Assembly: GCF_004010195.1 (NCBI RefSeq)
Contig: NC_057726.1
Location: 70,661,211 to 70,725,210 of the forward strand
Source: Chiloscyllium plagiosum
Taxonomy: Eukaryota
Direction of reading: 5' to 3'
Length of the DNA: 64,000 nt
In this document: one piece after another, positions 2,332 to 60,029 of the stretch
Position numbering within the stretch: position 1 is the stretch's first letter
How the letters are laid out: each line of letters opens with the position of its first letter
Notes under the pieces: generated by a model
Seen by the model: the letters and a program-made list of their open reading frames with translations, nothing else
Told to the model about the DNA's origin: nothing
Database searches by the model: none
Made by a program: the position numbers and the translations under genes

Positions 2332-2436
2332 ATAATCGCGCAGATTCCAATGATAACCTTTACCCAAAGATTTTCGGTTTTTTGGGAGGTGGATTGACAT
2401 TATTCCTCGGCGTGATGTACGCATTCAGGCGAATCG
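2332..2436 (+). CDS. IgSF receptor copy A: transmembrane exon (DNRADSNDNLYPKIFGFLGGGLTLFLGVMYAFRRIG)
   Basis: Acceptor tcctcatag|, donor G|gtaaga, 105 nt, phase 1-1. It encodes a 19-residue hydrophobic stretch followed by RR stop-transfer residues. Confidence 0.85.
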
Positions 2437-3181: not shown

Positions 3182-3225
3182 GAACATGCAGAAAACCAAA
3201 AGAGCGTAATCAGCGCAATGAGCAG
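3182..3225 (+). CDS. IgSF receptor copy A: cytoplasmic exon 1 (GTCRKPKERNQRNEQ)
   Basis: Acceptor ttcacatttag|, donor CAG|gtaggt, 44 nt, phase 1-0. It joins the TM exon and the ITIM exon in frame. Confidence 0.8.
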
Positions 3226-3740
3226 GTAGGTCACTGGCAGCAACTATTGCAAAAGTGGTTACACTGACATTTCAAACAGCATCGCGATATTTTCCAGATA
3301 TCCAAACTGGTTCAATTTCCTGAATGTCTGCGGTTAAAAGGTATCCAGAGACAGTATAATAATGTCATTCAATGCAAGGAGCTCGATTACAAAGATGAAA
3401 GATTGTGCTATAATTAAAACATGAGCAGCGTTGTTTGAATACATTTAATAATTCGGGAGGAACACTTCAGATTAAAGGGCTAAGGGAGTTAATGTGACAG
3501 GAGAAAATGTATCAAGGAGATTGATTCAGAATCCAATCTGTTGGACTAAACGACATGTTTCAGTGATGGGAATTAAAGTAAAGCAATAAGTATAATTAAG
3601 AGAGGCCGACTCACATTGAAAAAAGATACTTTCATCTCCGAATTGAAAGTATATCGGGTAGATCTAATCTACCCGACACAAAATATATAGCAACGCAATT
3701 CTATTCCTCAAATAATAAGGAATGAAATACTTTTTTTTTT

Positions 3741-4027
3741 AGATTACTTACAGTGTGGAAACAGGCCCTTCGGCCCAACAAGTCCACACCGCCCGCCGAA
3801 GCGCAACCCACCCATACCCCTACATTTACCCTTTACCTAACACTACGGGCAATTTAGCATGGCCAATTCACCTGACCTGCACATCTTTGGATTGTGGGAG
3901 GAAACCGGAGCAGACACAGGGAGAATGTGCAAACTCCACACAGTCAGTCGCCTGAGGCGGGAATTGAACCCAGGTCTCTGGCGCTGTGAGGCAGCAGTGC
4001 TAACCACTGTGCCACCGTGCCGCCCAC
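3741..4027 (-). mobile_element. HE1-like tRNA-derived V-SINE
   Basis: Pol III A-box GGCACAGTGGTTAGC and B-box GGTTCAATTCC on the minus strand, central cacagtccaaagatgtgc core, taatcta tail. Confidence 0.85.
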
Positions 4028-4681
4028 TTATATTGAGGTTAAGAAATTTATCTTCAATACATTATTTGTTGGGAAAACGTTAAATGGGTGAATTAAGATG
4101 TTGCAGAATCACATGCATGAACATCAAGGTAATGTGTAAAGAGTTCAAAGGTGACATTCAGAAAAAAAATGCATTTTAAGAATGAATAGAGCCAAATCTT
4201 GTAATGTCAACAACATGAATTTTGGCATGATACCTTGAAATAATTGGAGTGTGGAAAACACCATTACACCCCCAGGCACTATTGGCACACTTTGTATCTA
4301 CACATGAAATCTGGGGCTGACATGATATGTTGTATGATATGTACTGATATGTACTGACACACAGTGACCTTGCCCCCATCCTCACCCCACCCCGCCTTTT
4401 ATCATTGTCCTCTTCCCTTTCCCAAGAATCCAGGACCACTAAATGACAATATGTATAACCTCGTTTCCACCCTCCCTATTCACCATCAGATCTCAGCAGA
4501 TCTTCCATTCACCTTCTACTTTCGCCTCCTCTGCACTCCGGCTTCCAATAACCCCGGTTTCATATAATAATCAGTCTGTTGTACATATTGGACACTCAGT
4601 GAATCGAGTTTCACCAGGATTGCAACATACAATAGACATGTTGATGGATTGTGCTCTATACTAACACTTCGTTTCTTTCAG

Positions 4682-4792
4682 ATCAGGTGTACAAAAACTA
4701 ATGAGGGAGTAACATACGCCACTCTCGGTTTCGTTAACCCCAGGGAAGCTAAGGAGTCTCGACCTTTAAATGAGACCACGGTGTATGCGCAG
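4682..4792 (+). CDS. IgSF receptor copy A: ITIM/ITSM exon (IRCTKTNEGVTYATLGFVNPREAKESRPLNETTVYAQ)
   Basis: Acceptor gtttctttcag|, donor CAG|gtaaag, 111 nt, phase 0-0. VTYATL fits the ITIM consensus (I/V/L/S)xYxx(L/V). TVYAQ+I/V fits the ITSM consensus TxYxx(V/I). Confidence 0.85.
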
Positions 4793-5957
4793 GTAAAGAG
4801 AATATGTGTCAATCTAAAATAAATAGAGGAAGGGGAAACACAGGCCTGAGAACATCTGTGCAGAGGAAGACTTCATGTGTGATAGCAGTGACATTTTTAC
4901 CCGAAAATAGAATCGAAATGTGAGTTTGTTTTTGTTCCAGCGAAACTAAAGGGATAGTAAATATAAATGCAAACATCCAGAATTGAATAAGATTAAACAA
5001 CAAAATGTTTCATGATTTAACGGCAGAAACAATTGTAATCTTAAAATTAAAGAATCAAAAAAGGGAAGCTGATGAGGTTTGAAATTTGCACAGTCGTCAT
5101 CTGAATGCTGCTTGAAGGTAAAATCAATGAAATAAGATCCAATCGACTCAGACAAAAGAAAACGAACCGAACAAACGATGTGTCCAGAACAAAATTTCGG
5201 CGTAAGTGTTGCTCCAAAGCTTGTGAAGCCAGTACAGTGTATTGAGTTCTGACGGCTATAGAACATGGAATCAATCCTATTCCTCGAACTGGCATTGAAC
5301 ACTATTGCAATGCTGCAGTGACCAGGGTGTAAAGCAGCCAGGGTGAGGTCGGAAAAGAGAATTAAATGATAAAGCGCAAGATAATGAGTGTAAGATGACC
5401 AGAGGTGTTTTATTGTCCAGTTGAAATGAAGCTATCTTTAAAACACCATTACAATTTCGTAAATTGAAAAAAAAAATCCTCGGAGTAGAATGTTAAAAAT
5501 TAGATGCTTTATCCGCTTTGGAAAGGTTCCACAGACAATTGAGGAAATGTCAGGTTTGATTGAAAAGTGGACCAAGGTGTCGCGGAGGAAATAGCCCCTC
5601 TGTGGAATGTTAACAGTGGAGAGTCTGGGGAGATTGTGTGTAGTGGTTTCACTACACGGTAGCTGCAGGGGAAGGCAGAGGAATATTCAAATGATGGAGT
5701 TAAACACAAAGACAGCGGTGAGCAAGTCATACCGCCTGAAGGGTGGGAAGAGGTGAAAAAATAACGCTATGAAGTTTAATGGAGACCCATTGAACGACAA
5801 TCGGGTAGCATACTCTTCCAGAGAAAGGAATACAAATCAGGAGCACTTACATGGGAGTGACAAGCTGGGACTAACGAATGATAAACTTATAAGATCTTAC
5901 ATTCTGTGCGGTTTCCCGCATACTTCAGACACCTGAGCAGCGCGTAAAGTTTTTTTT

Positions 5958-6322
5958 AGATTACATTACAGTGTGGAATCCTCCCACAGTCCAAAGATGT
6001 GCAGTTCAGGTGAATTGGCCCGTAGTGTTAGGTAAGGGGTAAATGTAGGGGTATGGGTGGGTTTCGCTTCGGCCCAACAAGTCCACACCGACCCGCCGAA
6101 GCGAGACCTACATTTACCCCTTACCTAACACTACGGGCAATTTAGCATGGCCAATTCACCTGAACTGCACATCTTTGGACTGTGGGAGGAAACCGGAGCA
6201 CCCGGAGGAAACCCACGCAGACACGGGGAGAACGTGCAAACTCCACACAGTCGCCGGAGGCGGGAATTGAACCCGGGTCTCTGGCACTGTGAGGGAGCAG
6301 TGCTAACCACTGTGCCACCGTG
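5958..6322 (-). mobile_element. HE1-like SINE with internal inverted (fold-back) duplication
   Basis: 5979-6070 is the reverse complement of SINE sequence at 6095-6190. Confidence 0.8.
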
Positions 6323-6479
6323 CATGAAGGCATACCAAGGTCTTCGAAAAACCTTGCAAGACCTTTGCTAAAATGTCCAAATACAGATATACACACGGAC
6401 TTGATGACGGACTTCAAATTTGATATTAAAAAATAACGTTATATTGTGACACTCAGAAATGACAGAGATTTGATCAGAG

Positions 6480-6579
6480 TCTAGATTAGAGTGGTTCTGG
6501 AAAGCACAGCAGGTCAGGCAGCATGCTCCTCGGATGCTCCTTTTCCTGCTGTGCTTTACCAGCACCACTCTAACCCAGC
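6480..6579. mobile_element. Short hairpin element with 13-bp target-site duplication
   Basis: TSD gatttgatcagag at 6467-6479 and 6580-6592. Inverted arms ttagagtgg..aaagcacagcagg / cctgctgtgcttt..ccactctaa. Confidence 0.75.
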
Positions 6580-7919
6580 GATTTGATCAGAGCTGAACAT
6601 AGAGCGAGGTGAACAGCAGCAGAAAGTGGAGTCGACCATTCGGCCCAGTTGGATTCTGGATGTTGCAGAATGGTCATCGACGATGAATAAGGAATGTATG
6701 AGGGTGTTGTAAGACAGACCGAGCTTGATATACCATGATAGCAAATCCCCAGGGGAGAGTAAGCACACGCAGCAGCAGTAGTTAAACGCCACATCTTCTG
6801 AGCAAATGTGACAAATGTGGAGAAACTGGTAGACAGGAAGAGAATCTTTATGGAAGACGGGAAGTGCTGAAGTGGAGTCAAGGTTACTTGGGCTTGTCGT
6901 GATCTTACAAGATCATCGAACTGAAAAGTTAATTCTGCTTCTGCTCACCTCAGAGGTTGAATGCTTCCCTTTAAAAAGATATTTTCTCAGATATCTGGGA
7001 TTTCTCCATTTTTCACCGTCGTACTAAATTAAATTGATCAGTGACTTCATTTCCCGAATCATTATATGAGTAGTCCTTTTGAAGCCATTGCTATAAGCAT
7101 CTGAGTTTCTCCACATGTGTGAAAGATATATTAGCGACTATTGAAATTGTACAGGTTAGAATGGATTCCAAACTTTACACAGGAATTGTTGGAAACCTCT
7201 GCATGGTTTCACTTATCTCAACAGTTTCTACAACTGCACCTCAGAAAGCAATAGTTAAACCAATTTTACGTACAGACAAAACCTGACTTTTAGATAAGTA
7301 TTGAAACAGGTGCTTCAATATTTAATTAGTTATTTTTCATGTAAAAATGTGCAAGGTTTTGGCAAATCGATTGGTGGGACGAATGAATAATTATGTGCGG
7401 GTAAAACGATATTTGACAGCCAATTGACCACCTCCATTGTTGTAGAATAACAATGCACAAGCTGCATTTCAGAAGTCTGACTTCAGCCCCAATTGTTGGT
7501 ATTTACAGGCGAAACACGAAGTGACAGGGAACATAATCTACGTTGACTTCCAAATAAACCTGTTTGTCTATAACCTGGTGTTGTGTGATTTCTAACTTTG
7601 TACAGCCCAGTCAACACAGGCTCCTCCAAATTAGGGAGCACAGGAATCTTGCGGTTTCATTAGAACAGAGAAGATTGAAGGGATAGATTATTTTTCTTTA
7701 AACAACACAGTATTCGAAGGTTGTGCAACTGAAAGAATGTCCAAAGTTGATAGCATTTACGTAGAAGTTAAGATAAAAGGAAATTGTACTGGCGTGTTCA
7801 CCTTTTGATGAGGTAGCTTGGTCAAAATATATTTTACTAAGCGAGAAGTCTTCAATCGCATTGCAAAGATTTTAAATAAGTAGCAAGGTGAAATGACTAA
7901 ACTCTTAATTTGTCCATCT

Positions 7920-8513
7920 CTTTTCAAAGTTTGTGCGAAGATTTGTAGCTCGGGTGCTCGTTGAGTTTGTGGATGAATGCCATGCCTCTAGGAGTTCCCT
8001 GGCTGTTCTCTGTCTGGCTTGCCCTATGGTAGTAGTGTTGTCCCAGTCGAATTCATGTTGCTTGTTGTCTGCGTGTGTGGCTACTAAGGGTAGCTGGTCG
8101 TGTCGTTTCGTGGCGAGTATCTGTTCATGTATGCGGATTGTTAGCTGTCTTCCTGTTTGTCCTATATCGTGTTTAGTGCAGTCCTTGCATGGTATTTTGT
8201 ACACTACATTCGTTTTGCTCATGTTGGGTATCGGGTCCTTCGTTCTGGTGAGTTGTTGTCTGAGCGTGGCTGTTGGTTTGTGTGCCGTTATGAGTCCTAG
8301 GGGTCGCAGTAGTCTGGCTGTCAGTTCCGAGATGCTCCTGATGTATGGTAGTGTGGCTAGTCCTTTTGGTTGTGGTATGTCCTCGTTCCGTGGTCTTTCT
8401 CTTAGGCATCTGCTGATGAAGTTGCGCGGGTATCCGTTTTTGGCGAATACCTTGTATAGGTGTTCCTCTTCTTCTTTTTGCAGTTCTGGTGTACTGAAGT
8501 GTGCAGTGTCCAT
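7920..8513 (-). mobile_element. Penelope-like element, 3' fragment with GIY-YIG endonuclease remnant
   Basis: ORF 7905..8513 contains NGYP, TLPYI, NVVYKIPCKDC..DIGQTGR.L..RIHE and RELLEAWH. It lies antisense in the last intron of copy A. Confidence 0.88.
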
Positions 8514-8828
8514 CTCTTTATCTGCAATACATTATCCACAAATTTGCAGAAAGCAGATAAAACGTTAACCTTGTAAAAAGACTTTGAAATACAGGGCAAA
8601 ATTATAGTGACCCGGAGAAATGACAGGTCAGTTGGAGCAACTGGTTGTATTTTCAGAGCGTCAACATTTTTTCATCTTTCTAGACTCACAAAGGATCGTC
8701 ATTATTTTGACATCTTCAGCAAAGCAAATGTCTGTGATGCTCTCACTACTTTGAATATACATCAGTTAAACAGATGTTTGTTGCATTTAAAATAGGCGCT
8801 CATAATACAAAATGTTTCTGTGTTTCAG

Positions 8829-8900
8829 ATCAAACGAGGGCAATCAAACAATGGAGCTGTATACACTGATTCATCTATTCCTGGCAGTCATACAACCTAA
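8829..8900 (+). CDS. IgSF receptor copy A: terminal coding exon (IKRGQSNNGAVYTDSSIPGSHTT*)
   Basis: Acceptor gtttctgtgtttcag|, phase 0. Its first codon ATC completes the ITSM; stop at 8898-8900; it resembles the preceding exon. Confidence 0.65.
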   Translation: MKRGQSNNGAVYTDSSIPGSHTT

Positions 8901-9075
8901 ATGACACGGTGGATTGAATGCGCAATGAAAATCGATAATAACAGCGGGGTTTTTTGTTACACGGGTATCGATTATGACATTTTGTCTATGACTTTTCATG
9001 TTAACTGATTCAAGTTTATTCCATCTAATTAATCTTTCAATGCCTTACTAAACCTTAAAGGGTGACTCAGCAGCC

Positions 9076-9081
9076 AATAAA
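9076..9081 (+). promoter_or_regulatory. Candidate polyadenylation signal of copy A
   Basis: AATAAA about 175 nt downstream of the stop at 8900. Confidence 0.4.
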
Positions 9082-9779
9082 TCGCAGTGATACATTTCTG
9101 TGGACTCAAAGCTATACAGATCCATTCGTGCACAGTGCCCTATTCCTTTCAGACAGAAAGAACATGTGCATTTACACAGGGATTTCTCGGGACAACTAAT
9201 TGACTCTGATTGCTCAATCCACCTGGATTACCAATTACAGAAACCTCGGTATTAACTGTCATACAGTATTTGTGAGTGGCATGGCAACCCCATGGCAACA
9301 CACACACACCAATCAGTGATCATATATCAACCAATCAACACTCTCCTTTCATCCTGAATCAATGCTGATTTTCGCCTAAATTGAGATTTTGCAAATTGTT
9401 CTGATTAGTGCAAGATGAAAATCTTTGACTGAACGTGTCGTTTCTTCCTTGCAAAACCTTCAAGCCCGTTATCTACCTGGAAATAATTGCTTGTCACCCA
9501 CCACATTAATAAGTGCGTCCCCTCTCTCATCTTTAAGGAAATCAATTAAATGGCTACAATTTCCTGTCAAGATCTCTTTGCACTCAAACAGTCAGCCTGC
9601 CTGTGGAGAGCTTCACCCACCAGGGCACTTTTTAAAAAGAGGAATTCAAATTACGTCAAATTGTTTCCACTGTCAATGCTCAATCTTCACACGTCTAATT
9701 TTATAAAAGAATAATATCTTGTTTCCACCCAAAACACTCAACAACTCAGAAAATCTGCAGTTTCATTGGCAATATAGAA

Positions 9780-10079
9780 TAGAATCCCTATAGTGAGTAA
9801 ACAGGCGACCAAGTCCACACCGACCTTCCAAAGAGTATCCATTCTGACCTGTCCCCCCTATTTCCACTAACTAATGCATCTAGCCGACACATCCCTAAAC
9901 ACTATGGGCATGGTCAATTCATCCTAAACTGGGTATCTTTGTCACTCTGGGAGGAAACGGGAGCTCCCAGCGGTAACCCACGCAGACACGGGGAGCATGT
10001 ACAAACTTTACACAGGCAGTCGCCCGAGACTGGAATCTAACCCTGTGAGGCAGTAGTGCTAACCACTGAGCCACCATCC
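9780..10079 (-). mobile_element. Older HE1-like SINE
   Basis: Same A-box and core motifs, more diverged. Confidence 0.75.
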
Positions 10080-12894
10080 CAAAAACAAACGTCATCTGGA
10101 CTGTATTGTTCTTCTACCCTGAAATCATCCTATAAATTCAACATTGCCACCTTCCTCAATACAGTCAGGATTATTTTCATTGTCAAGCTTCATAATCTTG
10201 CTAATTCTCGAGAAGTCTCCAAACCTGGGCTTTGTCTCATGCAGACATAGAGTCATAGAGATGTTTAGCATGGAAATTAAGACTGTCAGCCAATGCGGTC
10301 TTTAATTTCTTTTTGAATTTTGTGTCCCTCCGCATGTAATAGGAGCCAATGAAGGTTCAATATTTTTCATTGAGTCAATTAGAACCATATTGCGTAGGTT
10401 CTTAATGACTTATAACCGTCGATGGTCTACGATAACATCGAAGCTTTTAAAAGGTCAGCCATTTTAGAATTAAAGCGCCTCTACTGCTTCAGGCAGCAGG
10501 AAAGGTACAAAATATGTTCCAGAGCGTTTCTTAATACACAGGATATTGCATATCCCAGTGACTTCAGTGCTGCAGCAATAAAAAAGCAGAATTTGATAAA
10601 CCTGTAATCCATTGCAGTCAATCAAAAATTTCCAAACCAGAATTTATTTTGTGCATTATGCCTTAGAAGCATTTTAACTTCCACTGTGGATTAAACACCA
10701 CAACACATATGGTAGTTTGTAGTTTGATCTGATTGTGGACATGTCATCTATTGCATTAGTGCCACCTTCTCAATTAGAGTTTATGATACCTTCTCAACTG
10801 AATAACATGTTTTGAACTGATGAAACAATCTCATGTTTTTGGGAACATTTTATATGATACAATTTAAATTTTCAATAAAGGCATCGCTTGAACTGAGGTC
10901 CACATATTTGCTGACTTTCTAAAATGATCTAAAATATGTTTCATTGCACTGCAAGGCTGCAAATATATAAAAAAGCAGAATTTGATAAACCTGTAATCCA
11001 TTGCATTGTAATCCATCGAGACTTCTCGAGAATTAGCAAGATTATGAAGTTTGACAATGAAAATAATCCTGACTTTATTGAGGCAATGTTGAATTTATAG
11101 GATGTTTTCAGGGTAGAAGAACAATACAGTCCAGATGACGTTTGTTTCTGGGTTGGTGGCTCAGTGGTTAGCACTACTGCCTCACAGGGTTAGACTCCAG
11201 CCTCGGGCGACTACCTGTGTAAAGTTTGTACATGCTCCCCGTGTCTGCGTGTGTGTTCGAAATTGATTTCTCTTTATGCCCCAGTTGTGGCTAGTGTTCA
11301 GTTTTAGGCTGATTTCTGGCGCATCACTTCCCCAATCCATTTAGTTTGCATTCCTGAAAATTTTGGGGGCAACTTTATAGCCAGAATTTAATCCCAAATC
11401 TGCAATATTGCCAATTGTCAATTATAACACAAGAATTATGCTTTTCAGTGAGAAGGATGGACTTCTCCAAACTATGCTTTGGAGCATATTTTCAGAATTG
11501 AGACCCAAATTCCCTCATGGGAAATTCACTGTTGATCATTTTTCCCTTATTCAGTACTAACACAATTTTGTTTTACTGAATGATAAAAAAAGGGAGAACT
11601 TTGCTTGAGTGGTAATAAATCAGAATAACCAGAGCTATCCATTGCCTCAGGCATGAGGTGAGGTTGAGAAGGTGGGATTTCTGTGAGTTTTGACCACATT
11701 TGAGAATTCACAAGCACATACAAACCGAGATACAAAAAGACAAGGAAGTACTCATATTAGGAATGGGAAAGGAATAAAGAACTCAGTGAAGCTGTGTTGT
11801 TTCCCTCCATTCCTTTTGAATCTTTGAAGTTTGATGAGGAGAGGAGTTTGTGGATACACTAATTCTCAATCTGTCATTCACTGGTTAAGACTGGCCCATT
11901 AAATTTCCTTGAAGAAGGTTATTTCTTACTTTTTCCATGCTTAATGATGGGATTTGCACAGAGTAGTTTATTGGAAAATGCTGAGTATGAAGAGCTACAA
12001 GGAGGTTATTCTGTTGCTTCCAAAGAGAGTGAGAGTGATTTGGGTGCTTTCTCTTTGTAGATGAAATATTTCATCTCTATTCTCGAAATATGAAGCTCTC
12101 GATTCTTGCCCAGAAACCAATATTTAGATTACTTCTGTACTGAGCACACCCAAACACAGACCTACAGAACTGACATGCCCAACATTCTCAGCTACTGCTT
12201 GAATAAGTCAGCATTCCAGATATGATTCACAATGAGCTCCAGTAACTCATTTTGAAACAACCTCCTGATACAAAGAATCTGGATAACCTAAGCTCTCCCT
12301 CTACAACTGTCAGTATTCAGCCTTCAATTCATAAGCTCTGAGCTGAAACTGGCTGGCCTTTACATACTTTCTGCAAATGTGCTTGCCCAGGATCGCAAGG
12401 AATCCAGGAGTACAGACATGCTCCGGTCTTGATGCATTGACTGTCATTGGGATAGGGTGTGTGAAATCTATCTGTGCCTGTTCCCATTGATTAATCAATG
12501 TCTCTGTACAACTTTACCATATTCACATCTTCAGGCCTAACTGCTGCTGCGGCCACCTCACAACTCAAATCAGGGCCTTGCAGCCTCCTTAGCTCCTGTT
12601 CCTGTCCACTGATTACCCAATTTAATGAGAGTCCTCAACCTTCTGGTCGACTCTGACTTTTATTCTTACTGCCTCAAGTGGTTATTTCACAGCTTCCACT
12701 AAATCCTTGACTATAATAATCTTTTCTTTCATATCTTTGCTCAATATTTTATTCAGTGAATGCCCTCTTAAATATTAGAGTGTAGTATTCATTCTATGTG
12801 ATCATCTGGATCCGACATTTCATTAGATTTCAATGTTCCCTTGTAACTGCTGCTTAAATATAAATTGAATGAACTTAAAAGGTCATACATAGAC

Positions 12895-22475: not shown

Positions 22476-25400
22476 AGTTGTGTCTAAAATAATTTATAAT
22501 CTCACGCTTGTCACAATATACAATTTGCCAACACTTCAGCAAAAATGGTTGATGAGGTCTGGTGTCCTATTTGCAGCCTTAAATGCACTTTGCTTCCTAA
22601 ATTTTCATGGTGAGCAAATGTTGATACATTAGTCTGGGCCCCATTTTTAGCTGACATAAAATTGCAGTAGCTGAAATCCAAACTTGAAACGTTGCTTTAC
22701 CCCACCAGTTAGTCTCTACAAAGCCAAACATGACCCTTTTTAAAAGATCGGCTTTCTGCTTGTTCCCACCAGTTAATCTTACACCCTTAGAGATTGAATG
22801 AATGTCAAGGTGCCTTCTGATCTTATGTGTGACACAGGAAGAAACACTTTTAACTCTGCAAAACATGAAAAAATAAGATATCTGAAACTGAAAAACTATG
22901 ATCAAATTTTGATCAAAAACAACAAACTTCTGCTGTTGATTTAGCAATAACTACCCCATACTCACTTGAGTACGATTTCTTCATCACAAACTCCTTTGTG
23001 GACCCTATGGTTTAGCTGTTTAAAAGCCAAATATATGTATGATTCCCTCAGTTTTCCCTAATCTATATTTTTATTTACACATGGGAAAATCAGCATAGTT
23101 TCATATGAACAATGGAATCAGAAGCAATGTTAGGTCAGTCAGTCTCTCTAGCCTGTTCTGCTATTCCGAAGATTTAATAAAATAACTGGTACGAGATCAG
23201 TCCACTCTCGGAGAGCAAATCAAAACATTGTACAAACAATATCATAGTGAATCTGCTGTAACCTCAAATCCACATTCAAACAGTATCCCTGATAATCTTT
23301 TACCTCTTGCTCCGCCCGAATCTCTCAATTTGGGATTTTAAAATATTCAAGAACCTTGAATCCATTAACTTTTGAGGAAGAGTGTTGCAAAGACTCATAC
23401 ATCTCTGAGAGGGACAATTAACCAACAGAAACTTTGTGAGCACTGTTGAAGCAAAGCCCATCATTTCTAGGTCAAAATGCAGTGACTGGAGAATGGGAAT
23501 GAAAATAATGGCATTCCCCCATGTTCCTAGTATAAAGTGAAATTATAAATATCTGACTGCATTCAACCACAGAGAAAAAAAAGTCAAAATAATATGCTGA
23601 ATTTATTGCAAATATAAAGAAAATAAAGAGATCCTTGACAGTTGGAAATAATTGAATTGCATTTTTTCGTGGTAACAGTTGTGTTAATTTTCAAGTTGAA
23701 ATGGAATGGATCCAAGCGACAGTATCTGAGGGAAGAAATTCATCCACAGTTTTGCAAAATTATGGCAGAGTTATGTGGGAAAAATAACAGCTTAAAATTG
23801 ATAGAGAAACATAAACACCTCCATGATACAATCTGTTTTTCTATCTGCTAAGCGTACTTTTATTTGCCCAGCTTAAAGGCTGCTTTACATCGCTGCACAC
23901 ACTGGACTTTTTTTTCTTGGTGTTTAGGTTTCGATGATGCACCAGAGCCATTGAAGGTAAGATAGCCTGCTTTATGTCATGCTCTGTTTTGTCTGAAAAA
24001 CAGCATTGAGACTGATTTACCATTCATTTAAATCATTCTAGATGAAAATTACACAAAGCAATTACTGACAACATCTTGAAATCAACTCATTCTAATGAAT
24101 TATCTCATTATTTACACATATGAGTTGAAATGTATCTCTGTATATAATGTGATATTTTTTTCCTGTTGTTTAGGCATGATGCCATTCTCAGAACTTACTA
24201 GGTTAAGAGTAGAGTATCTGAGCTTATCCTCAGGAATCTCTTGTTTTGTCTAGAAAGTCAAGATTAACATTCAGAGGTTATTTTGTTTTGGAGTCAGTGA
24301 CAAGCATGCATTCTTAATGTAGGCAATTTGTTTGTTGTAGTGACTTTGCTAACATTGCATTTACAATCATAATACTTTACAGTTTCTCACTCTGAACTAT
24401 TTGTTGCTATGAACATCACACCTAATCACAATAAGCAAACATTATTGTTTCAATATTATTAATACTAATATAGCTTTAATTCAAACTTTCCTGGGAAATG
24501 CTGCAATTATGCAGTCTTCTGAAGAAAAGGTTTCATGCGTCAGTTCAATTTAATTAGATTTTTGAATTCTGATAAGTGACTTTCTGTTTTATTACATTCT
24601 GCTACAGATTGAGTATGCAGTACAGTTCATGAAATGAGGCAAAGATAAATATGTTTGTGTTTGCTTAACAACTATAAAAAAGAATCACAGGTCACGCTGC
24701 TGTAACGTAAAATTACAAGGAGCAAATACTTGAAATGAGTTAGTAAAGTTTCATTCGGAGGGTATATGGTGCAGGATTTAATTGAAAATTCCCTCACATT
24801 AAATTAGTTAAATCAGTAAGTCAGTTAGAGAAAAGGACCAACTGTACTTACCACTGTTAATAGAAAGATAATTTCAGAATCACCCTAATCCTTTATGAAT
24901 AAAGGAAGGTTTTTTTTTCTATTTCAGTCGGCCATCTAAATAAAGGCATTGAAGTCTTAAGTGAAGACGAAATTGCAATGTATTTTCAAAGATTTTGCAA
25001 GGTATTCTTGATGCCAGATAGCATGTTTTAAAGTAAATTATTGATGTTTTAATTTAAAATATGGGCCATCTATTTCGGGAGGTATATGTTCAGCTTGGTG
25101 ACAATGCAGAATTCTAACAAGTACAGTGTGCTTTTGACTAAAATGTAAACTACAATATGTCAGTGCTCTAAAATGTGCTTTTTGGGCTTCTGTGAGGTAT
25201 TTCTCAATCATAGATATTCTTGTCTTCTCTTTTGATCATGATAACCTGCTCATGAAACATTGTATCTGGCTATGAGAGAATTTTATTCTGTTACCTATAA
25301 CACTGCAGCGTCAAAATCTCACAGAAAGATATGCAGAACTGGAGTAAAGACTTTGCCCAGTTTTCCGAAGACCTCCGAGAAATCTTTGCTTCACCTTCAT

Positions 25401-33008: not shown

Positions 33009-33508
33009 NNNNNNNNNNNNNNNNNNNNNNNNNNNNNNNNNNNNNNNNNNNNNNNNNNNNNNNNNNNNNNNNNNNNNNNNNNNNNNNNNNNNNNNNNNNN
33101 NNNNNNNNNNNNNNNNNNNNNNNNNNNNNNNNNNNNNNNNNNNNNNNNNNNNNNNNNNNNNNNNNNNNNNNNNNNNNNNNNNNNNNNNNNNNNNNNNNNN
33201 NNNNNNNNNNNNNNNNNNNNNNNNNNNNNNNNNNNNNNNNNNNNNNNNNNNNNNNNNNNNNNNNNNNNNNNNNNNNNNNNNNNNNNNNNNNNNNNNNNNN
33301 NNNNNNNNNNNNNNNNNNNNNNNNNNNNNNNNNNNNNNNNNNNNNNNNNNNNNNNNNNNNNNNNNNNNNNNNNNNNNNNNNNNNNNNNNNNNNNNNNNNN
33401 NNNNNNNNNNNNNNNNNNNNNNNNNNNNNNNNNNNNNNNNNNNNNNNNNNNNNNNNNNNNNNNNNNNNNNNNNNNNNNNNNNNNNNNNNNNNNNNNNNNN
33501 NNNNNNNN
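33009..33508. other. Assembly gap (500 N) at the symmetry axis
   Basis: Run of exactly 500 N, which looks like a fixed-size scaffolding gap. Confidence 1.
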
Positions 33509-36211: not shown

Positions 36212-36678
36212 ATGACATTCAATTCGGACAATAAACTGGAGAATAGGTGAAACGTAAAGTGTAATAACTTGCTGTTGCATAAATCGCCTGGAATAATGGT
36301 GTTGTTTGGTGCGGACTGTCCTTCTTATTTAATCTCAGTGTGTTTCCTTGGTTGATAGCTGCTGTGAGTATTTTGGCCAAAGTGAATCCAGATCTGAAAT
36401 GAAGAACAGCGCAGAGAGGTGCAACAGTTTTCTTGCTTTGTCTTTACCCCCTCAAAATCGACTATTCAAATGTTATTGTTTACTGGCAGAGAGAAGGTAA
36501 CAAAATCTTTCTGCAGGACGATAACACAAAGGTCTTCCATGCCATTAAAGGAGTAGCCTACCTTAATCTTCTGAATGTAACTGTCCAGGATACTGGAACA
36601 TATTACTGTGTCATCAAATATCAGCATCGAACAGCGGGGAAAGAAACTTCTGTGCAACTTAAATGCCACTGCAGATAA
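36212..36678 (+). pseudogene. IgV (VJ-type) pseudogene, right copy
   Basis: Putative exon 1 at 36212-36246 and intron 36247-36348 (phase 2), then a hydrophobic leader and a V domain (FLLCLYP, VYWQR, LNLLNVTVQDTGTYYC, AGKETSVQL). In-frame TGA at 36400-36402. The 3' donor looks mutated (GCAG|ataaat). No C or TM exon was found downstream. Confidence 0.8.
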
Positions 36679-39600
36679 ATGTGGAGTCCTAGCTGCTTAA
36701 AAAGCAATCAACAACAATAAGCCAATCACTTGGGAAGGCAATGGCCTATTGGTATAACCACCAGACAATCAATCCAGAAACTCAGCTAATATTCTGGGAA
36801 ACTGGATTCAAAGCCTGCCATGGTGGATGATGAATTTCGAATTCACCAAATAATCTGGAAGTAAGCACCTAATGATAACTGTTAAGCCATGATCGATTGT
36901 CAGAAAAAAACTATCTGGCTCGCTAATAAACCGTTGAAAAGGAAATTACTATCTTTATCTGGTCTGGTCTCCATGTGACTCTAGAACCACAGCAATGTGG
37001 ATGCTTGTTAACTGCCCTCTGAGCAATTAGGGATGAGCAATAAATACTGGCTTCTGGGCCAGAGATGCCTATATCCTGTGTGATTAAAGGAAACTTTATT
37101 AGATACAGAAGCATCATGCAAAATATGTGCATTTACTTAAACTGAAACATATTCAAGAATCTTGGAGAAACACTGCAAAGTTTGAGATCTGCTCTGTATT
37201 TAAAATTGGGGAAATTGGGCGTCGCTGGCTGGTCCAGCATTTCTTGCCTGTCCCTGCTTGCCCTTGACAAGGTAGTGGTGAGCTGCCTTTTTGAAGTGCT
37301 GCAATCTACATGCTGTAAGTGGACCCACAATGCTATTAGGGAGGAATTTCCAGGATTTTGCCTCAGTGACAGTGAAGGAACAGTGATTTCAGGATTGTGA
37401 GTGGCTCGGGAAAATTTTGGAAGTGGTGTGTTCCCATATACTTACTGCCCTTGTCCTTCTAGATGGTAATGATTGTGGGTTTAGAAGATGTTGTATCAGG
37501 ATCTTTGGTGAATTTCTGTAGTGCATCTAAATGATACACACTGCTGTCACTGAGCTTCTGTAGTGGAGTGGCTGGATGTGGTGCCAGCCAAGTGGGCGGT
37601 TTTTACTAAAGCATGTCAAACTCTTGTGTGCTTTTGGATCTGCAGGCATGCAGGCAAATGGGGACCATTCCAACACAGTCCTAAATTGCACCTTTTGAAT
37701 GGTGGGTAGGTAATTGAGTTACTCGCTGCAGTGTTCCTAGCCTTTGAACTGCAGTTCTATATAAATGGCGAGCCCAGTTCTGTTTCAGCTCAATGAAAAT
37801 GCCCAACATGTAGATAGTAAGGGGAATCACTGAATATAATGTCACTGAATGTTAAGACATGTTGTTTAGATTGTCTCTTGTTGAAGATGGTGTTTGCCTG
37901 GCATTTGTGTAGCGTGAATGTTACTTCCAAATTTTCAGATCAAGCCTTGATATTGTACAGTTCTTGCTGCATTTGGTCCTTTCCAAAGTGCAACACCTCA
38001 TACTTACCTGTATTGAATTGCATTTGCCAATTCTCAGGCCACTTCCCAATCTGATCAAGATCCCTTTGTAATTTGTGATAACTTTCCTCGCTATCAATGA
38101 TACCTCCTGATTTTCTATGATCCGCAAACTTCCTAATTATGCCACGTCCAGATCATTTATGTAAATGACAAATAACAAAGTTCCCAGCACTGATCCCTGT
38201 GGCACACCACTAGTCACAGGCCTCCAGTCTGAGAAACAACCTTCAAGCATCACCCTCTGCTTCCTACCATCAAGACAATTTTGAATCCAATTAGCTAGTT
38301 CTCCCTGGATCCCATACGACCTAACCTTCCTGACTAGCCTGCCTTGTGCAACCTTGTCAAAGGCCTTGCTTCACATCAAATATACAACAAGAAGAGTTGA
38401 AGTTTCACTTTGTTATGTTGTATCAGTGTAGATCTAAATTGTGATAGAGAAAATCAGTGCTGAAAGAAGTTTCCATAGCTTGAATCTTCAAAACATAAAT
38501 GCAAAGCATCACGGTGGTACAGTGGTTAGCTCTGCTGCCTTACAGTGGTGCAGACCCGTATTCAATTCCCGCCTCAGGCAGTTGTCTGTGTGGAGTTTGC
38601 ATGTTCTGGCCATGTATGCGTGGGTTTCCTCCCACCGTCCAAAAAAATGTGTGGAGGTCAGTTGAAATGGCCATGCTAAATTGCTTGTAGTGTTCGGTGA
38701 ATGGGGTGAATGTAGGGGAATGGGTCTGGGTCGGTTGCTCTTCGGAGGGTTGGTGTGGACTTTTTGGGCCGAAGGGACTGTTTCCACACTATAAGTAATC
38801 TAACCTGTGTATAGCATTTAGACCAGTATTGTGAAATTATTTTTTCCTATTGCACCCTGTTTACAATTAGCAAATAGTATTCGATTTGCTTTTGATTTCT
38901 TTGATCTGCTGATGTGTCCAAGTATCACCTTTTTTTATTGTTGATTTACGTAATTTTAATTTTTCAAGAGGAAGAGAGAAAAAAATCATTCAATTCAACT
39001 CCGCGTGAAGATTCGGTATGAGGCAAATTTCCTTTATTCTATTTTAATGTTCGAGTCTAGTTGAACAATTGAAACTGGGAACCCCATACACACACATATA
39101 TATTTCTAACATTCTAACATGTGGATAAGTCTTGAAGATACCATCAGTTCTCAGTAGCACAATGGCAGCTGAATAAAAACAAAATAAAGAAAATAGAAAA
39201 TGGTAGGAAGTTTCACAAGCTATTGTAAATATTTTAAATCATCAAGCATATTTATAAATATTTATGTTGTATTGGTTAACTTATGCTGTTTTTTCAACTA
39301 TCAGTCGTAGTTTTGAAGCTGACTAATAGCTTTGACTTATCTTTTCATTTGTACTTAACAAGTGACAGTGTGCTGAATAATTTTGCTGCATTGATTATAG
39401 ATATAATGTTACGCTGGAGTGATGATTATTCTCAATGGTAGGTTTCGAGCTGAAAATAGAAATGATTGCTCTCTCTTTTCTTACTACACTGTTGAAAATT
39501 GACTCATCCATTAGTCTGAGTTTGGTCATAATGACTGACTTCTATTGCGTGACTCTGGCAAAGATCCCAATGTATTAGGCAGACAGCTTGCCAACTTGGC

Positions 39601-42358: not shown

Positions 42359-44087
42359 ACTAAAAAGTTACCACGAAAAATTGCAATTCAATTATTTCCA
42401 ACTGTCAAGGATCTCTTTATTTTCCTTATATTTGCACTAAATTCAGCATATTATTTTGACTTTTTTTCTCTGTGGTTGAATGCAGTTAGATATTTATAAT
42501 TTCACTTTATACTAGGAACATGGGGGAATGCCAATATTTTCATTCCCATTCTCCAGTCACTGCATTTTGACCTAGAAATGATGGGCTTTGCTTCAACAGT
42601 GCTCACAAAGTTTCTGTTGGTTAATTGTCCCTCTCAGAGATCTATGAGTCTTTGCAACACTCTTCCTCAAAAGTTAATGGAATCAAGGTTCTTGAATATT
42701 TTAAAATCCCAAATTGAGAGATTCGGGCGGAGCAAGAGGTAAAAGATTATCAGGGATACTGTTTGAATGTGAATTTGAGGTTACAGCAGATTCATTATTA
42801 TATTGTTTGTACAATGTTTTTGATTTGCTCTCCGAGAGTGGACTGATCTCGTACCAGTCATTTTATTGAATGTTCGGAATAGCAGAACAGGTTAGAGAGA
42901 CTGACTGACCTAACATTGCTTCTGATTCCATTGTTCATATGAACCTGTGCTGATTTTCCCATGTGTCTTAACCAGTGAATGACAGATTGAGAATTAGTGT
43001 ATCCACAAACTTCTCTCCTCATCAAACTTCACAAAGATTCAAAAGGAACGGAGGGAAACAACACAGCTTCACTGAGTTCTTTATTCCTTTCCCATTCCTA
43101 ATATGAGTACTTCCTTGTCTTTTTGTATCTCGGTTTGTATGTGCTTGTGAATTCTCAAATGTGGTCAAAACTCACAGAAATCCCACCTTCTCAACCTCAC
43201 CTCATGCCTGATGCAATGGATAGCTTTGGTTATTCTGATTTATTACCACTCAAGCAAAGTTCTCCCTTTTTTATCATTCAGTAAAACAAAATTGTGTTAG
43301 TACTGAATAAGGGAAAAATGATCAACAGTGAATTTCCCATGAGGGAATTTGGGTCTCAATTCTGAAAATATGCTCCAAAGCATAGTTTGGAGAAGTCCAT
43401 CCTTCTCACTGAAAAGCATAATTCTTGTGTTATAACTGACAATTGGCAATATTGCAGATTTGGGATTAAATTCTGGCTATAAATTGGCCCCATAAATTTT
43501 CAGGAATGCAAGCTAAATGGATTGGGTAAGCGATGCATCAGAAATCAGCCTAAATCTGAACACTAGCCACAACTGGGGCATAAAGAAAAATCAATTTCGA
43601 ATACACACCCAGACACGGGGAGCATGTACAAACTTTACACAGGTAGTCGCCCGAGGCTGGAGTCTAACCCTGTGAGGCAGTAGTGCTAACCACTGAGCCA
43701 CCAACCCAAAAACAAACGTCATCTGGACTGTATTGTTCTTCTACCCTGAAAACATCCTATAAATTCAACATTGCCACCTTTCTCAATACAGTCAGGATTA
43801 TTTTCATTGTCAAACTTCATAATCTTGCTAATTCTCGAGAAGTCTCGATGGATTACAATGCAATGGATTACCTGCAATGGATTACAGGTTTATCAAATTC
43901 TGCGTTTTTATTTATTTGCAGCCTTGCAGTGCAATGAAACATATTTTAGATCATTTTAGAAATTCAGCAAATATGTGGACTTCAGTTCAAGCGATGCCTT
44001 TATTGAAAATTGAAATTGTATCATATAAAATGTTCCCAAAAACATGAGATTATTTCTCCTTGATACATTTTCTCCTGTCACATAGTA

Positions 44088-44372
44088 GGGCGGCACGGTG
44101 GCACAGTGGTTAGCACTGCTGCCTCACAGCGCCTGAGACCCGGGTTCAATTCCCGCCTCAGGCGACTGTGTGGAGTTTGCACGTTCTCCCCGTGTCTACG
44201 TGAGGTTTCCTCCGGGTGCTCCGATTTCCTCCTACAGTCCAAAGATGTGCAGGTCAGGTGAATTGGCCATGCTAAAATTGCCCGTAGTGTTAGGTAAGGG
44301 TAAATGTAGGGGCATGGGTCGGTGTGGACTTGTTGGGCCGAAGGGCCTGTTTCCACGCTGTAACGCTCTAAA
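44088..44372 (+). mobile_element. Young HE1-like SINE, right-arm specific
   Basis: gggcggcacggtggcacagtggttagc start and B-box gggttcaattccc. Absent at the mirror site ~3491. Confidence 0.88.
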
Positions 44373-44641
44373 TTAAATCCCTTAGCCCTTTAATCTGAAG
44401 TGTTCCTCCCGAATTATTAAATGTATTCAAACAACGCTGTAATGTTTTAATTATATAGTACAATCTTTCTTCTTTGTAATCGAGCTCCTTGCATTGAATG
44501 ACATTATTATACTGTCTCTGGATACCTTTTAACCGCAGACATTCAGGAAATTGAACCAGCTTGGATATCTGGAAAAATATCGCGATGCTGTTTGAAATGT
44601 CAGTGTAACCACTTTTGCAATAGTTGCTGCCAGTGACCTAC

Positions 44642-44685
44642 CTGCTCATTGCGCTGATTACGCTCTTTTGGTTTTCTGCATGTTC
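44642..44685 (-). CDS. IgSF receptor copy B: cytoplasmic exon 1 (last recognisable exon of this copy)
   Basis: Identical to 3182-3225, acceptor catgtag|. Read-through of the donor gives VGHWQQLLQKWLH*. Confidence 0.75.
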
Positions 44686-45430: not shown

Positions 45431-45535
45431 CGATTCGCCTGAATGCGTACATCACGCCGAGGAATAATGTCAATCCACCTCCCAAAAAACCGAAAATCTT
45501 TGGGTAAAGGTTATCATTGGAATCTGCGCGATTAT
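45431..45535 (-). CDS. IgSF receptor copy B: transmembrane exon
   Basis: Nucleotide-identical to 2332-2436. Acceptor cacag|, donor |gtaaga; phase-compatible with the C1 exon about 10.9 kb upstream. Confidence 0.82.
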
Positions 45536-56451: not shown

Positions 56452-56754
56452 CCGATTTATTGAAAGTGTAGCTGACATTTGCTGGCGTCCGAAGTGAGAT
56501 GTGAGACACTTGACAAGTGTAAACGGTACCGCTCTGAACGGGTTCTGTCTCAGTCAGGTTGCTGGAAACTTCATAGAGCCCGATGGAATTCTGCAGTTTG
56601 ACATGTTCCATCCCGGTTGCAATTTCTGAAACATTTTTGTACCAAGTGATGTTCAGGTTGTCTGGGTAAAACGCAGCAGTTGTGCAAAGAAGAGTTAGAG
56701 GGAAAGCTGAGCCGTCCTCCAGCAGTTTGACCAGTTTGAGTGGAGTCGGAGGGA
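56452..56754 (-). CDS. IgSF receptor copy B: C1-set Ig domain exon
   Basis: Acceptor tctttttgtttag|, donor G|gtaggt, 303 nt, phase 1-1. C1 hallmarks: LTLLCTTAAFYP, ITWYK, GLYEVSSNL, YTCQVSHISL. Several N-x-S/T sites. Confidence 0.93.
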
Positions 56755-58011
56755 CTAAACAAAAAGAAAAGGAAACGTTTGTTTTGAAGCCCATTTAATT
56801 TGAAAAATGTGAAGGAAATTCTGTCACAAGGTCAAACAGAAACAGAAAACCGCAAAAGGCGTTCGTTACTCGGCATTTCGGGTGTTAAAAGGTGATACCA
56901 TTCAGATCAAACATTCTGCTGGCACAAGATTCAGATCGAAGAGAAAGCAGAAAGGTTCTTCAAAGCCTAATTACAGACGTAATTTGAAATTTGAAAAGAG
57001 AATCGTTATAGCTAATGTTGCAGTTTTAGCGTCATAGAGTTGGAATTAAAGGAAACGTTGATTTAAATTTTCCACCGGCAAATGCCTTTGCTTCTGCCTC
57101 TGAAATCAATTAATTGCTTATTTCGCAATCTTAGTATTTTCCATTCCCCCAAATATTTAAATACGCAAAACATCACGTTTCAAATGTTCATACCAATTAT
57201 GAGATGTGTAGTCCTTCTCCGTGCTTTTCTTTCTGAGATGGGATCATTATGTTCCAACCTCTGAGGAGATCGCTTTTGACAGTTCAACAAAAATTCCCCA
57301 CCCAAAACACACGTTACACACTGAGTAAAACTCGCATTCATTAAATAAACCGAAGTTAATGTAAACTCGGCTGAAGGGCATGTGAAGTTTGAGTAAACAC
57401 GTCTCATTTTCATTTAGAACCCTAACCTTTCTTCAGCAAGGCATCTGTAGTAGCCCAATCTAACAACAAGGATCAGATTGAGTGTGTACGCGTTGGATTA
57501 CAGAGGACAGAGAGGCGACTTTATTGAACTTTAGAAGATTCTTAGAGGATTTGACATTATTCATGCAGAAAGGTTATGTCCCCTTGTGAGAGAAACTATG
57601 ACCAGAGGGCATAATCTCAGAATAAGAGGGTGCTTATTTAAAACAGAGATAAGGTAGAAATTGTTCTGTTAGAGGTTGATAATCTGCAGAATACTTTTCC
57701 ACAGAGGGTTCTTGAGACTTGGTTTGTAAGTGTATTCCACACTGGGATAGATACATATTTGTTTGCTTACTAATTCAAGGTTTATCAGGGAAAGGCAGGA
57801 AAGTGGAATTAAGGGCTAGCTGATGAGCCAGGATATCATTGATTGGCGGAGCAGGCCCTAAACGTCTATCTCCACTCCGACATCTTATGTTGTTAAGATC
57901 GGAACAGAAGATTACAAATTCTTTTCTTGGAGATTAAATCCACATTTTGATTGTTATTCAAATTAATGCCTTACAAAAAACGCAGTATTTTCCCCTCTCC
58001 GTAATCCTTAC

Positions 58012-58323
58012 CAAACACGACCAGGTTGGTGTCGGTTCCGTTTGCAGCCACATTGTGTGTCACTCTGCAGTAATAAACCACAGCGTCCTCCAATCTTACA
58101 TCTGCCAGTTGTAAGACAGATCCTCCCTGAGTGAGGAAATAAAGCTGGATTCTGCGGTCCAAACTTTCCTCCAAGAACCCATCTCTCCCATTTCTCCACC
58201 ACTGCACTTTCACTGGCTTTTTGTCTCGAAAGATGGGGAAAATGCAATAAAGTTTAACCGAGGAGCCTCTCGTGACTGCGCACTCTCGATCTTGTCTCAC
58301 CGTTAGTTGAGAATTGTGAGAGG
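58012..58323 (-). CDS. IgSF receptor copy B: V-set (germline VJ-type) Ig domain exon
   Basis: Acceptor tttttgttttgcaacag|, donor G|gtaagg, 312 nt, phase 1-1. Motifs: SVKLYC, VQWWR, LQLADVRLEDAVVYYC, and a J-like G strand ANGTDTNLVV. Confidence 0.92.
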
Positions 58324-58496
58324 CTGTTGCAAAACAAAAAGAAGAGCTAACTATCGAATTAAATGATGAATAACAAACCTAGAAGATGTTATGAAAACAA
58401 GCACGTATTGACAAAACAAAACAGCAATAGAAAAAGCTGTATAAAAAGCTTTTATATATCTACACATCAGAAACAGAGTGAAATAACAGTCACTCA

Positions 58497-58556
58497 TTGG
58501 AAAGAGGTATAACTGATAGATAACATGGCCGTGCAGCGAAGTAAAACACTGAACAT
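58497..58556 (-). CDS. IgSF receptor copy B: putative leader exon (MFSVLLRCTAMLSISYTSFQ), splice donor appears damaged
   Basis: Signal-peptide-like ORF about 170 nt upstream of the V exon. It ends CAA-TGAGTG rather than a phase-1 G|GTGAGT. Confidence 0.45.
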
Positions 58557-60029
58557 CTTGAACAGCTAAACTGAAGTGATCATTTGCATTGCTATGTGTA
58601 ATATATACAAATTCACCACAACATAAGGGAGGATGTTCGGTTTCAAATGTGTCTGTCGGTACATGAGTTGTGCTGATGTTTGAGGTTCTTACCAGCCTAA
58701 TGAGGGGAAACTAACGCTTGATTATTCTATATAATGCACTCATGATTGTCGCTGACATTATTAACGCCCATATATGTGAATTTACTATTTGTACTTCCAC
58801 TGCAGCTGCTCAGAATGGATTCCGTGTATGAGACATTTTGCAGCAAAAGGGTTGGATGTTCTGATATCTTGCTTCAACGTCTTTGCTTTTTTTGGAAGGT
58901 CGCGATCATATAATAATGACAACCGATTGCTACACTCAGTCATTGTAGACAAATACAATTCAAAGTGCGTGCTGTCTGGAACACCTTCAGATGTTCGATT
59001 CATTAGATGCCACCAATTATTATCAATAGCCTTTTCGCTATAAAGTCAGAGTCATACAGCACCGAAACAGACTGTTCCGTCCAACCGTCCATGCCAGCCA
59101 GATATTCCAAACTGAATTAATCCCACTTGGTCCATACCCGCTTTAAACTTCTCCCTCCATGTCCCTGTCTTTTAAAATGTTATTTTTGTCCCCACCGCCA
59201 CCACTTCCTCTGGTACCTCAGTCTGTACACCTATCACTCCTCAGATCCCTTTTAATTGCTTCCACTTTTGCATTAACCCTAAACCCTCTAGTTTTGGACT
59301 CCCCTACCAAGGAAAAGAACTTAGATTCACTTTATCTAAGCCCCACATGATTTTATAAACCTCTACACTGTCACCCCTCAGCCGCCGGCGCTCCATCACA
59401 AGGATAGTGGGTTAAGGACGGTGTGTGTAACATTGTAACAGCAAGCGATTTCCTTGCCCATATTTGAACTGATGACATGTGGTCAAGAGTCAATGTTGAG
59501 TCCCGGTTCAACTCTCTTGCAACTGTCTACCATTGCTACCACCGCCTTTGTGTCTGCCCTGACAGTAGGACAGAACACGCATGGAGATGGCGAGTGTGTG
59601 AAGATTATGATTCCACGAGCAAGGTTCTGTCAGGTTTTTGCTTGACTAATCACAGATATTAAGAAGACGGACTTTGCATACTGACAGGACTGAGTTTTCG
59701 GCTGCCATTTCCAGTGCATTTTTTGATACCACGTGGTCTGCACCATTGTTTTCTGCAATGTTCCAGCTGTTGAAAGACACAGATGTTTTGCCATTTCAGA
59801 CAGAAGTAAAGAATCAATGACATTTCTGGGAATCTGCATTCAGAGGCTGGCAGTTTTCGCCTCGAAAGGACGTCAGAAAAGCAATTGACAATGATTTCAT
59901 GGTCATCGGTAAAGTTTCAACTCCAGACTTTAGTTGAATTCGATGCCAAACATTTGCCATAGTGGAAGTTGAACCAGTCCTCGGCCTTTCTTGGTCAATT
60001 GATTACCAGTCAAGCAACGATAAATTTCA

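What the first reader, a model, noticed from the sequence alone, without database searches (positions are those of the whole stretch)
56452..58323. Germline-joined VJ + C1 ectodomain with an inhibitory tail: antigen-receptor-like but non-rearranging
Seen: one 312-nt exon encodes the whole V domain including a J-like G strand (YYCRVTHNVAANGTDTNLVVF), followed by a true C1-set exon (FYP, YTCQVSH). No valid RSS was found. The V domain has an extra Cys (DREC) beyond the canonical pair. Established: C1-set domains are restricted to Ig, TCR, MHC, tapasin, SIRP and a few B7-family proteins. Inference: V(J)-C1-TM-ITIM-ITSM with a single C1 is a SIRP/NCR3-related architecture relevant to the pre-RAG ancestor of antigen receptors. 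I cannot assign orthology.
Basis: partly seen in the sequence, partly recalled or inferred. Interest (0 to 1): 0.7.

Follow-up and report, generated by a model that had tools for sequence, protein, structure and literature searches.

The report
Broken copy of shark brake receptor
These two exons are real parts of a shark cell-surface receptor gene built like one antibody chain, from a cluster of dozens of relatives whose intact members likely switch immune cells off or on, but this copy has lost its signal-peptide splice site and its inhibitory tail and is likely dead.

Summary
The V exon (58323-58012) and C1 exon (56754-56452) are real, open and RSS-free; TM and first tail exons lie at 45535 and 44685. 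The claimed ITIM-ITSM tail does not belong to this copy. A 7.3-kb deletion removed both tyrosine exons, which survive in its inverted twin (window 4682, + strand). A 13-nt deletion removed the leader's splice donor, so the leader runs into a stop; an independent DNA run carries the same deletion. The gene is one of six close copies in a cluster with 37 V and 48 C1 matches on one chromosome. Orthologues in horn shark, sevengill shark, rays and chimaera are already in RefSeq under automatic names (SIRP-alpha-like, B7-H6-like, light-chain-like); the family has ITIM-tailed and Arg-TM forms. V and C1 trees keep the family as one group outside Ig/TCR; deeper kinship is unresolved. MHC-paralogon markers and the SIRP neighbour NSFL1C are not on this chromosome. 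The extra Cys is absent from the orthologues. The scan found this family before on other DNA. Verdict: likely pseudogene of an unnamed chondrichthyan paired-receptor family; a pre-RAG relic is not supported.

The parts
58494..58556 (-). Leader exon (ATG at 58556); 13-nt deletion at about 58507 removes the splice donor, frame runs into TGA after 20 codons
   Evidence: X2 contig 14 matches 58230-58614 with 0 differences and 0 gaps
58012..58323 (-). Single-exon V-type Ig domain, 312 nt, Cys26-Trp41-Cys85, extra Cys14, x-G-x-G-T-like G strand
56452..56754 (-). C1-set exon, 303 nt
45431..45535 (-). Transmembrane exon, 105 nt, uncharged core
   Evidence: splice sites conserved in paralogues; splicing inferred
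44642..44685 (-). First cytoplasmic exon, 44 nt, no tyrosine; read-through would end 12 codons later
44088..44363 (.). Short interspersed repeat inserted in this copy only
44054..44055 (-). Junction of a 7,303-bp deletion (twin 3521-10823) that removes both tyrosine exons
   Evidence: assembly only, not checked in reads
2332..2436 (+). TM exon of the inverted twin B (its V and C1 lie 13.1 and 11.6 kb before the window)
3182..3225 (+). First cytoplasmic exon of twin B
4682..4822 (+). First tyrosine exon of twin B: ITIM VTYATL; TVYAQV (ITSM-like) only if the donor after 4792 is read through
7509..7549 (+). Second tyrosine exon of twin B, cut short; complete in paralogue C
24112..24249 (-). Intact-looking ITIM+ITSM exon (LRYSTL, TLYTEI) of a neighbouring dead family gene; same strand and phase as this gene's tail exon but 20 kb away
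33009..33508 (.). Assembly gap at the centre of the inverted duplication

Best explanation
This is a likely dead duplicate of a non-rearranging shark receptor gene (leader, one V, one C1, membrane anchor) whose intact relatives likely act as inhibitory immune receptors; this copy lacks its leader splice donor and both tyrosine-motif exons. Shown: the exons, the two deletions, the inverted twin, the cluster and the orthologues. Inferred: intact members are type I membrane proteins whose V domain binds an unknown ligand and whose ITIM-like tyrosines recruit SHP-type phosphatases, while short-tailed members with Arg in the membrane pair with an activating adaptor (established for SIRP and other paired receptors, recalled, untested here). 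Inferred: the cluster turns over by birth and death; this copy arose by an inverted duplication about 5% diverged and then decayed. Without the donor the leader stops after 20 codons, so no surface protein would be made.
For: Leader donor deleted, stop follows; same allele in DNA run X2, which differs from the assembly at other sites. The only in-frame cryptic donors before the stop score -7.0 and -5.1 on a matrix from 54 family donors (median 4.9, minimum -6.3). Tail deletion of 7,303 bp; 6 TM copies against 2 first-tyrosine-exon copies in the genome. Three of the five close paralogues carry clear lesions: frameshift in C1 (D), stop at the end of C1 (E), stop in V and frameshifts (F). 37 of 43 V matches and 48 of 140 C1 matches lie on C17 (my count). 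The gene's C1 groups with horn shark, sevengill shark, two rays and chimaera models, 95/95; those with a TM include ITIM-tailed P0002-P0004. Of 61 models: 25 TM+ITIM-like, 8 TM with a charged residue and no ITIM, 14 other TM, 14 no TM (heuristic, isoforms included).
Against: V, C1 and TM frames are open, with canonical Cys/Trp and AG/GT ends. pN/pS against the twin is 0.41 (7 synonymous, 9 non-synonymous; p about 0.06-0.07 against neutrality), which hints at selection during part of its history. The leader donors of twin B and paralogue C also score poorly (-8.0, -9.2), so either the matrix is too crude or the whole subfamily is failing. No RNA test was obtained. The tail deletion rests on the assembly alone, 10 kb from a gap at a palindrome centre. 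No ligand, adaptor or phosphatase binding was tested.
Confidence: 0.7

Rival explanations
1. The copy is alive as a tailless decoy: a cryptic donor inside the leader (58513) gives a shortened signal peptide, and the protein sits at the surface with a 30-residue tail lacking tyrosine, competing for ligand with its inhibitory twin.
For: Open V, C1, TM; the cryptic donor is in the right phase; pN/pS 0.41; poly(A) hexamers follow the tail exon at 44451 and 44394.
Against: The donor scores near the bottom of the family range; the pN/pS signal is not significant; similar tail loss occurs in paralogues D, E, F, which are clearly broken.
Confidence: 0.13
2. The first reader's full V-C1-TM-ITIM-ITSM protein is made after all, either by splicing 20 kb to the orphan tyrosine exon at 24249 or because the tail deletion is an assembly error.
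For: The 24249 exon has a good acceptor, matching phase and both motifs; the region is a palindrome with a gap.
Against: The leader is still dead; at least 12 poly(A) hexamers and an antisense dead gene lie between; the exon mirrors one at 41484 that belongs with the neighbouring V remnant; the deletion junction is clean and no third copy of the tyrosine exon exists in the assembly.
Confidence: 0.07
3. The family is the cartilaginous-fish branch of SIRP, moved to another chromosome and reduced to one C1.
For: SIRP-alpha (93.5 bits) and SIRP-gamma (89.6) rank 5th and 8th of 5338 PDB matches to the family profile, above conventional light chains; paired forms and two tyrosine pairs resemble SIRP (recalled); many automatic names say SIRP-like.
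Against: One C1, not two; SEP-domain genes (NSFL1C family, SIRP's neighbour in mammals, recalled) are on C20 and C4; lungfish V domains with SIRP-like motifs do not join the family in the V tree; whole-chain scores favour multi-domain targets.
Confidence: 0.2
4. The family is a direct relic of the unsplit VJ-C1 gene that RAG invaded.
For: Single-exon V with G-x-G-T strand plus true C1; present in chimaera and elasmobranchs, which split about 420 million years ago (PMC3964593, passage); UrIg2 is the top PDB match to the profile, 113 bits; nearest shark V relatives by profile lie on C37, the contig with MHC-like genes.
Against: No PBX, NOTCH or proteasome match on C17; V is short (Cys-Cys 59 residues, median 59 in 44 models) with no C'/C'' strands assigned in the model; V and C1 fall outside Ig/TCR groups; UrIg2 is a better-placed published candidate (PMC12227049).
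Confidence: 0.07

Closest known systems
RefSeq chondrichthyan models XP_067906069.1 (Heterodontus), XP_067853506.1 (Heptranchias), XP_072135200.1 (Mobula)
   Same: Likely orthologues: 72, 66 and 58% identity over C1, same clade in both trees, same L-V-C1-TM layout.
   Different: They keep leader and tyrosine tail and lack the extra Cys (Ser, Ser, Val). Their names (light chain-like, SIRP-alpha-like, NCR3LG1-like) are automatic and disagree.
SIRP-alpha / SIRP-beta paired receptors
   Same: Single-exon joined V, C1-set domain, inhibitory and activating forms (SIRP features recalled; SIRP listed among joined-VJ IgSF in PMC11599192, passage).
   Different: One C1 instead of two; shorter V; not on the NSFL1C-family contigs; CD47 binding untested.
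PRARP and Xenopus VJ-C1 genes
   Same: Non-rearranging VJ-C1 layout (as cited in PMC10751288, passages; the original papers were not held).
UrIg / UrIg2 of sharks
   Same: Shark, non-rearranging single-exon VJ plus C1; top PDB match.
   Different: Three to eleven C1 domains, split leader, MHC or Ig/TCR linkage, disulphide-linked dimers (PMC12227049, parts 1-3 read); this family has one C1, a one-exon leader and ITIM tails.
NKp30 (NCR3) and NCR3-like V genes on C37
   Same: Joined V with G-x-G strand; NKp30 has 29% identity in the structure comparison, Z 13.7 over 99 residues, rmsd 2.4, tied with many Ig folds.
   Different: No C1; C37 V genes form a separate group in the V tree; their NCR3 identity is my inference.

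Membership tests
Unnamed chondrichthyan V-C1 paired-receptor family (RefSeq automatic models) | V and C1 group with family members | tested here: met
   C1: 45 rows on one side of a branch, 97/96. V: 22 rows, 97/98; this gene's own V was dropped by the motif filter and its 92% paralogue L003 stands in.
Unnamed chondrichthyan V-C1 paired-receptor family (RefSeq automatic models) | Working leader and signalling tail (ITIM or charged TM) | tested here: not met
   Leader donor and tyrosine exons deleted, TM core uncharged.
Rearranging Ig/TCR, including germline-joined Ig | RSS-flanked segments, or a V nested among Ig/TCR V with F/W-G-x-G | tested here: not met
   No RSS; Asn at the F/W site; outside the 14 Ig/TCR-like V rows, which group at 94/86.
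SIRP | V-C1-C1 ectodomain | tested here: not met
   One C1, no further Ig exon before TM; orthologue models likewise.
SIRP | Linkage to NSFL1C | tested here: not met
   SEP-domain matches on C20 and C4 only, 4 of 4; one marker, linkage recalled.
SIRP | Clade with tetrapod SIRP domains | tested here: inconclusive
   No verified SIRP sequence in either tree; deep forks open; PDB ranking favourable.
SIRP | CD47 binding | not tested
   No complex job was run.
MHC-paralogon non-rearranging relics (UrIg, NCR3, PRARP) | Location in the MHC or an MHC paralogous region | tested here: not met
   PBX on C8, C30 and four unplaced contigs (0 of 10 matches on C17); NOTCH on C8, C11, C30; 0 of 29 proteasome matches on C17; GPI is on C17. 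Unplaced PBX copies leave a small gap.
B7-H6 (NCR3LG1) / tapasin-like V-C1 proteins | Sequence orthology | not testable with these tools
   No verified B7-H6 or tapasin sequence was returned by the searches; TAPBPR is among C1 matches at E 2e-10, level with MHC II.

The most novel reading that the evidence does not exclude
Sharks, rays and chimaeras keep a 400-million-year-old, birth-and-death cluster of dozens of paired V-C1 receptors, unnamed in the papers I could search, that is a sister lineage to SIRP/NCR3 and to the unsplit precursor of antigen receptors and serves as their main NK or myeloid receptor complex; this copy may persist as a tailless decoy.
Probability: 0.2. Interest if true: 0.65.

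Novelty: new variant of a known kind. Interest (0 to 1): 0.3.

Why it matters
The copy itself matters little: it is likely dead. The family matters more. The paired inhibitory and activating receptors of cartilaginous fishes are poorly charted (recalled), and a cluster of dozens of V-C1 genes conserved from chimaera to rays is a testable candidate. Its models carry misleading automatic names. The case also warns that tails can be wrongly borrowed from inverted twins when raw sequence is read.

Tried and rejected
RNA: no RNA holder listed. Single-cell runs X6 and X7 gave no read on the exons in about 2% and 6% of each run: no test. X1 gave two low-depth contigs on the exons with no joint, so splicing is not shown. 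V alone found no database homologue (0 of 119 candidates). The profile search of representatives was swamped by giant multi-Ig proteins; I named 10 of 150 rows, chosen for high score per domain. The structure searches gave only generic Ig folds with tied scores, and SIRP was not among the rows shown. The Atlas gave generic V-C1 clusters. Extra Cys as a meaningful feature: in all six close copies, 7 of 25 aligned paralogues, absent in three orthologues; in the model it lies in strand 13-16; burial and pairing were not computed. Hydrophobic stretches at 58446 and 46730 as leader or TM: wrong phase or not exon-like. LKYVSL at 43949 as a tail exon: preceded by a stop, no AG acceptor. The one_clade test did not finish and was not repeated. 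V tree: 6 of 26 fetched outgroup loci and this gene's own V were dropped by the motif filter. Literature: seven searches found no description of the family; five look-ups of four key immunology papers failed, so absence from print is not established. The one supplementary file held for PMC3964593 had 0 hits; its long supplementary notes may not be the file held.

Full report
Observation. The two exons are as described. The 312-nt exon 58323-58012 (minus strand) and the 303-nt exon 56754-56452 have AG/GT ends, phase 1, and open frames. Pfam gives V-set 28.1 bits (cut-off 26) and C1-set 48.7 bits; for scale, the best 150 V-set matches in this genome score 55-80 bits. No RSS was found. The AlphaFold model (pLDDT 90.3, 25 sequences) is an Ig sandwich with no C' or C'' strand assigned, and Cys14 lies in strand 13-16. 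Cys-to-Cys spacing is 59, the family median, short for a V domain (recalled). Structure searches give tied generic Ig matches; NKp30 has the highest identity among the top rows, 29%.

The rest of the gene. Comparison with five close paralogues located a TM exon at 45535-45431 and a 44-nt tail exon at 44685-44642. The window is a large inverted duplication centred on the gap at 33009-33508. The twin gene B runs on the plus strand; its V and C1 are 97% and 95% identical in protein. B continues into a tyrosine exon at 4682 and a truncated second one at 7509. The gene in question lacks the matching 7,303 bp. The genome holds six TM copies but two copies of the first tyrosine exon. Read-through after the tail exon gives a 30-residue tail without tyrosine. 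In B the ITSM-like word exists only if a donor is read through.

The leader. Scoring against orthologue leaders found the exon at ATG 58556. A 13-nt deletion removes its donor and the frame stops after 20 codons. A contig of DNA run X2 matches 58230-58614 without a difference or gap, while X2 differs from the assembly elsewhere, so the deletion is not an assembly error. X2 contigs read Gly at 58032, so the Asp that breaks the G-x-G strand is private to this assembly or an error. In-frame cryptic donors are weak. Against this reading: B's and C's donors are also weak on my crude matrix, and pN/pS to B is 0.41, p about 0.06-0.07. RNA gave no test.

The family. 37 of 43 V matches and 48 of 140 C1 matches lie on C17, mostly at 61.5-62.3 and 68.9-70.7 Mb (lower bounds, my count). 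Of the five close paralogues, D, E and F are clearly broken; C is the most complete. A family profile found 60 proteins among 6917 candidates: 54 at E 3e-32 or better, 53 of them named from sharks, rays or chimaera and one unnamed, then six turtle and frog MHC chains at 8e-11 or worse. The search needs shared words, so absence from bony vertebrates is not shown. The nearest named protein is a bamboo-shark hypothetical protein, 94% over C1. Of 61 models, 25 have TM plus ITIM-like motif and 8 have a charged TM residue without one, five of them Arg. This is the pattern of paired receptors (recalled).

Ancestry. In the C1 tree (67 rows, 104 columns) the family is one side of a branch at 97/96, and this gene groups with horn shark, sevengill shark, ray and chimaera models at 95/95. 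Family, MHC-like domains and two C16 domains are set off from Ig constant domains at 97/86. In the V tree (54 rows; this gene's V dropped by the filter, L003 standing in) the family is 97/98 and the orthologue group 100/97. Ig/TCR-like V, C37 V genes, reptile multi-V receptors and lungfish SIRP-like V stay apart, with open deep forks. Labels of outgroup loci are my inference from sequence; the trees are unrooted and hold no verified SIRP, NKp30 or B7-H6. Against PDB the family profile ranks UrIg2 first and SIRP-alpha fifth. Markers: PBX, NOTCH, proteasome and SEP-domain matches are off C17; GPI is on it.

Comparison with print. PMC12227049 (parts 1-3 of 8 and passages read) names UrIg2, linked to Ig/TCR genes, as the best pre-RAG candidate and has no occurrence of SIRP or PRARP. 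PMC10751288 (passages) says several VJ-C1 genes are known in tetrapods. PMC11599192 (passages) lists CD79, NITR, SIRP, CD8, NKp30 and PRARP as joined-VJ IgSF, so a J-like strand alone is common. PMC3964593 (passages) gives the 420-million-year split. Seven searches found no description of this family, but key immunology papers were not held. Five or more earlier notes of this scan describe the same family on other DNA; they are unchecked AI notes and are not counted as support.

Verdict. Observation partly confirmed; interpretation right for the family, wrong for this copy, and unsupported on the pre-RAG link. It works like a SIRP-type paired receptor family but fails two SIRP membership tests. 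Likely pseudogene, confidence 0.7. Interest 0.3.

Noticed in passing
window 1-32453 versus 33509-62257: Inverted duplication at about 94-98% identity with an assembly gap at its centre; copy-specific insertions and deletions suggest a real duplication, but the centre is unresolved.
   Followed up: partly
window 36367-36702 (+) and 29697-29400 (-); 41484 (+) and 24249 (-): A mirrored pair of dead family genes: V remnants with stops, and tyrosine exons, one frameshifted and one intact-looking. No C1 or TM was found for them.
   Followed up: partly
window 42966-42631 (-): Decayed Ig-like remnant, conserved beside paralogues C and E.
   Followed up: no
G000:C16:32.66-32.78 Mb (L087, L088): Unidentified C1 domains that are sister to the family in the C1 tree (92/84); SIRP-alpha ranks sixth in PDB for L087. 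A candidate for the true shark SIRP or B7-H6.
   Followed up: partly
G000:C37:17.6-18.6 and 26.6-26.9 Mb (L097-L102): Cluster of single-exon V genes with full Y/F-G-x-G-T strands on the contig that holds MHC-like genes; likely NCR3-like.
   Followed up: partly
P0088, P0103, P0118, P0159, P0210, P0215: Turtle and squamate multi-V, C1-less receptors with ITIM-tailed and Arg-TM forms score high per domain against the family V profile; their automatic names (pIgR-like, titin-like) look wrong.
   Followed up: partly
G000:C14:79.73-79.76 Mb (L081, L082): A V-like exon with several C1 exons whose C1 groups with one C37 (UrIg-like) domain at 98/90; not identified.
   Followed up: no
G000:C17:70729582 (+) and 70638173 (-): Further family V and C1 matches flanking the inverted pair just outside the window.
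   Followed up: no
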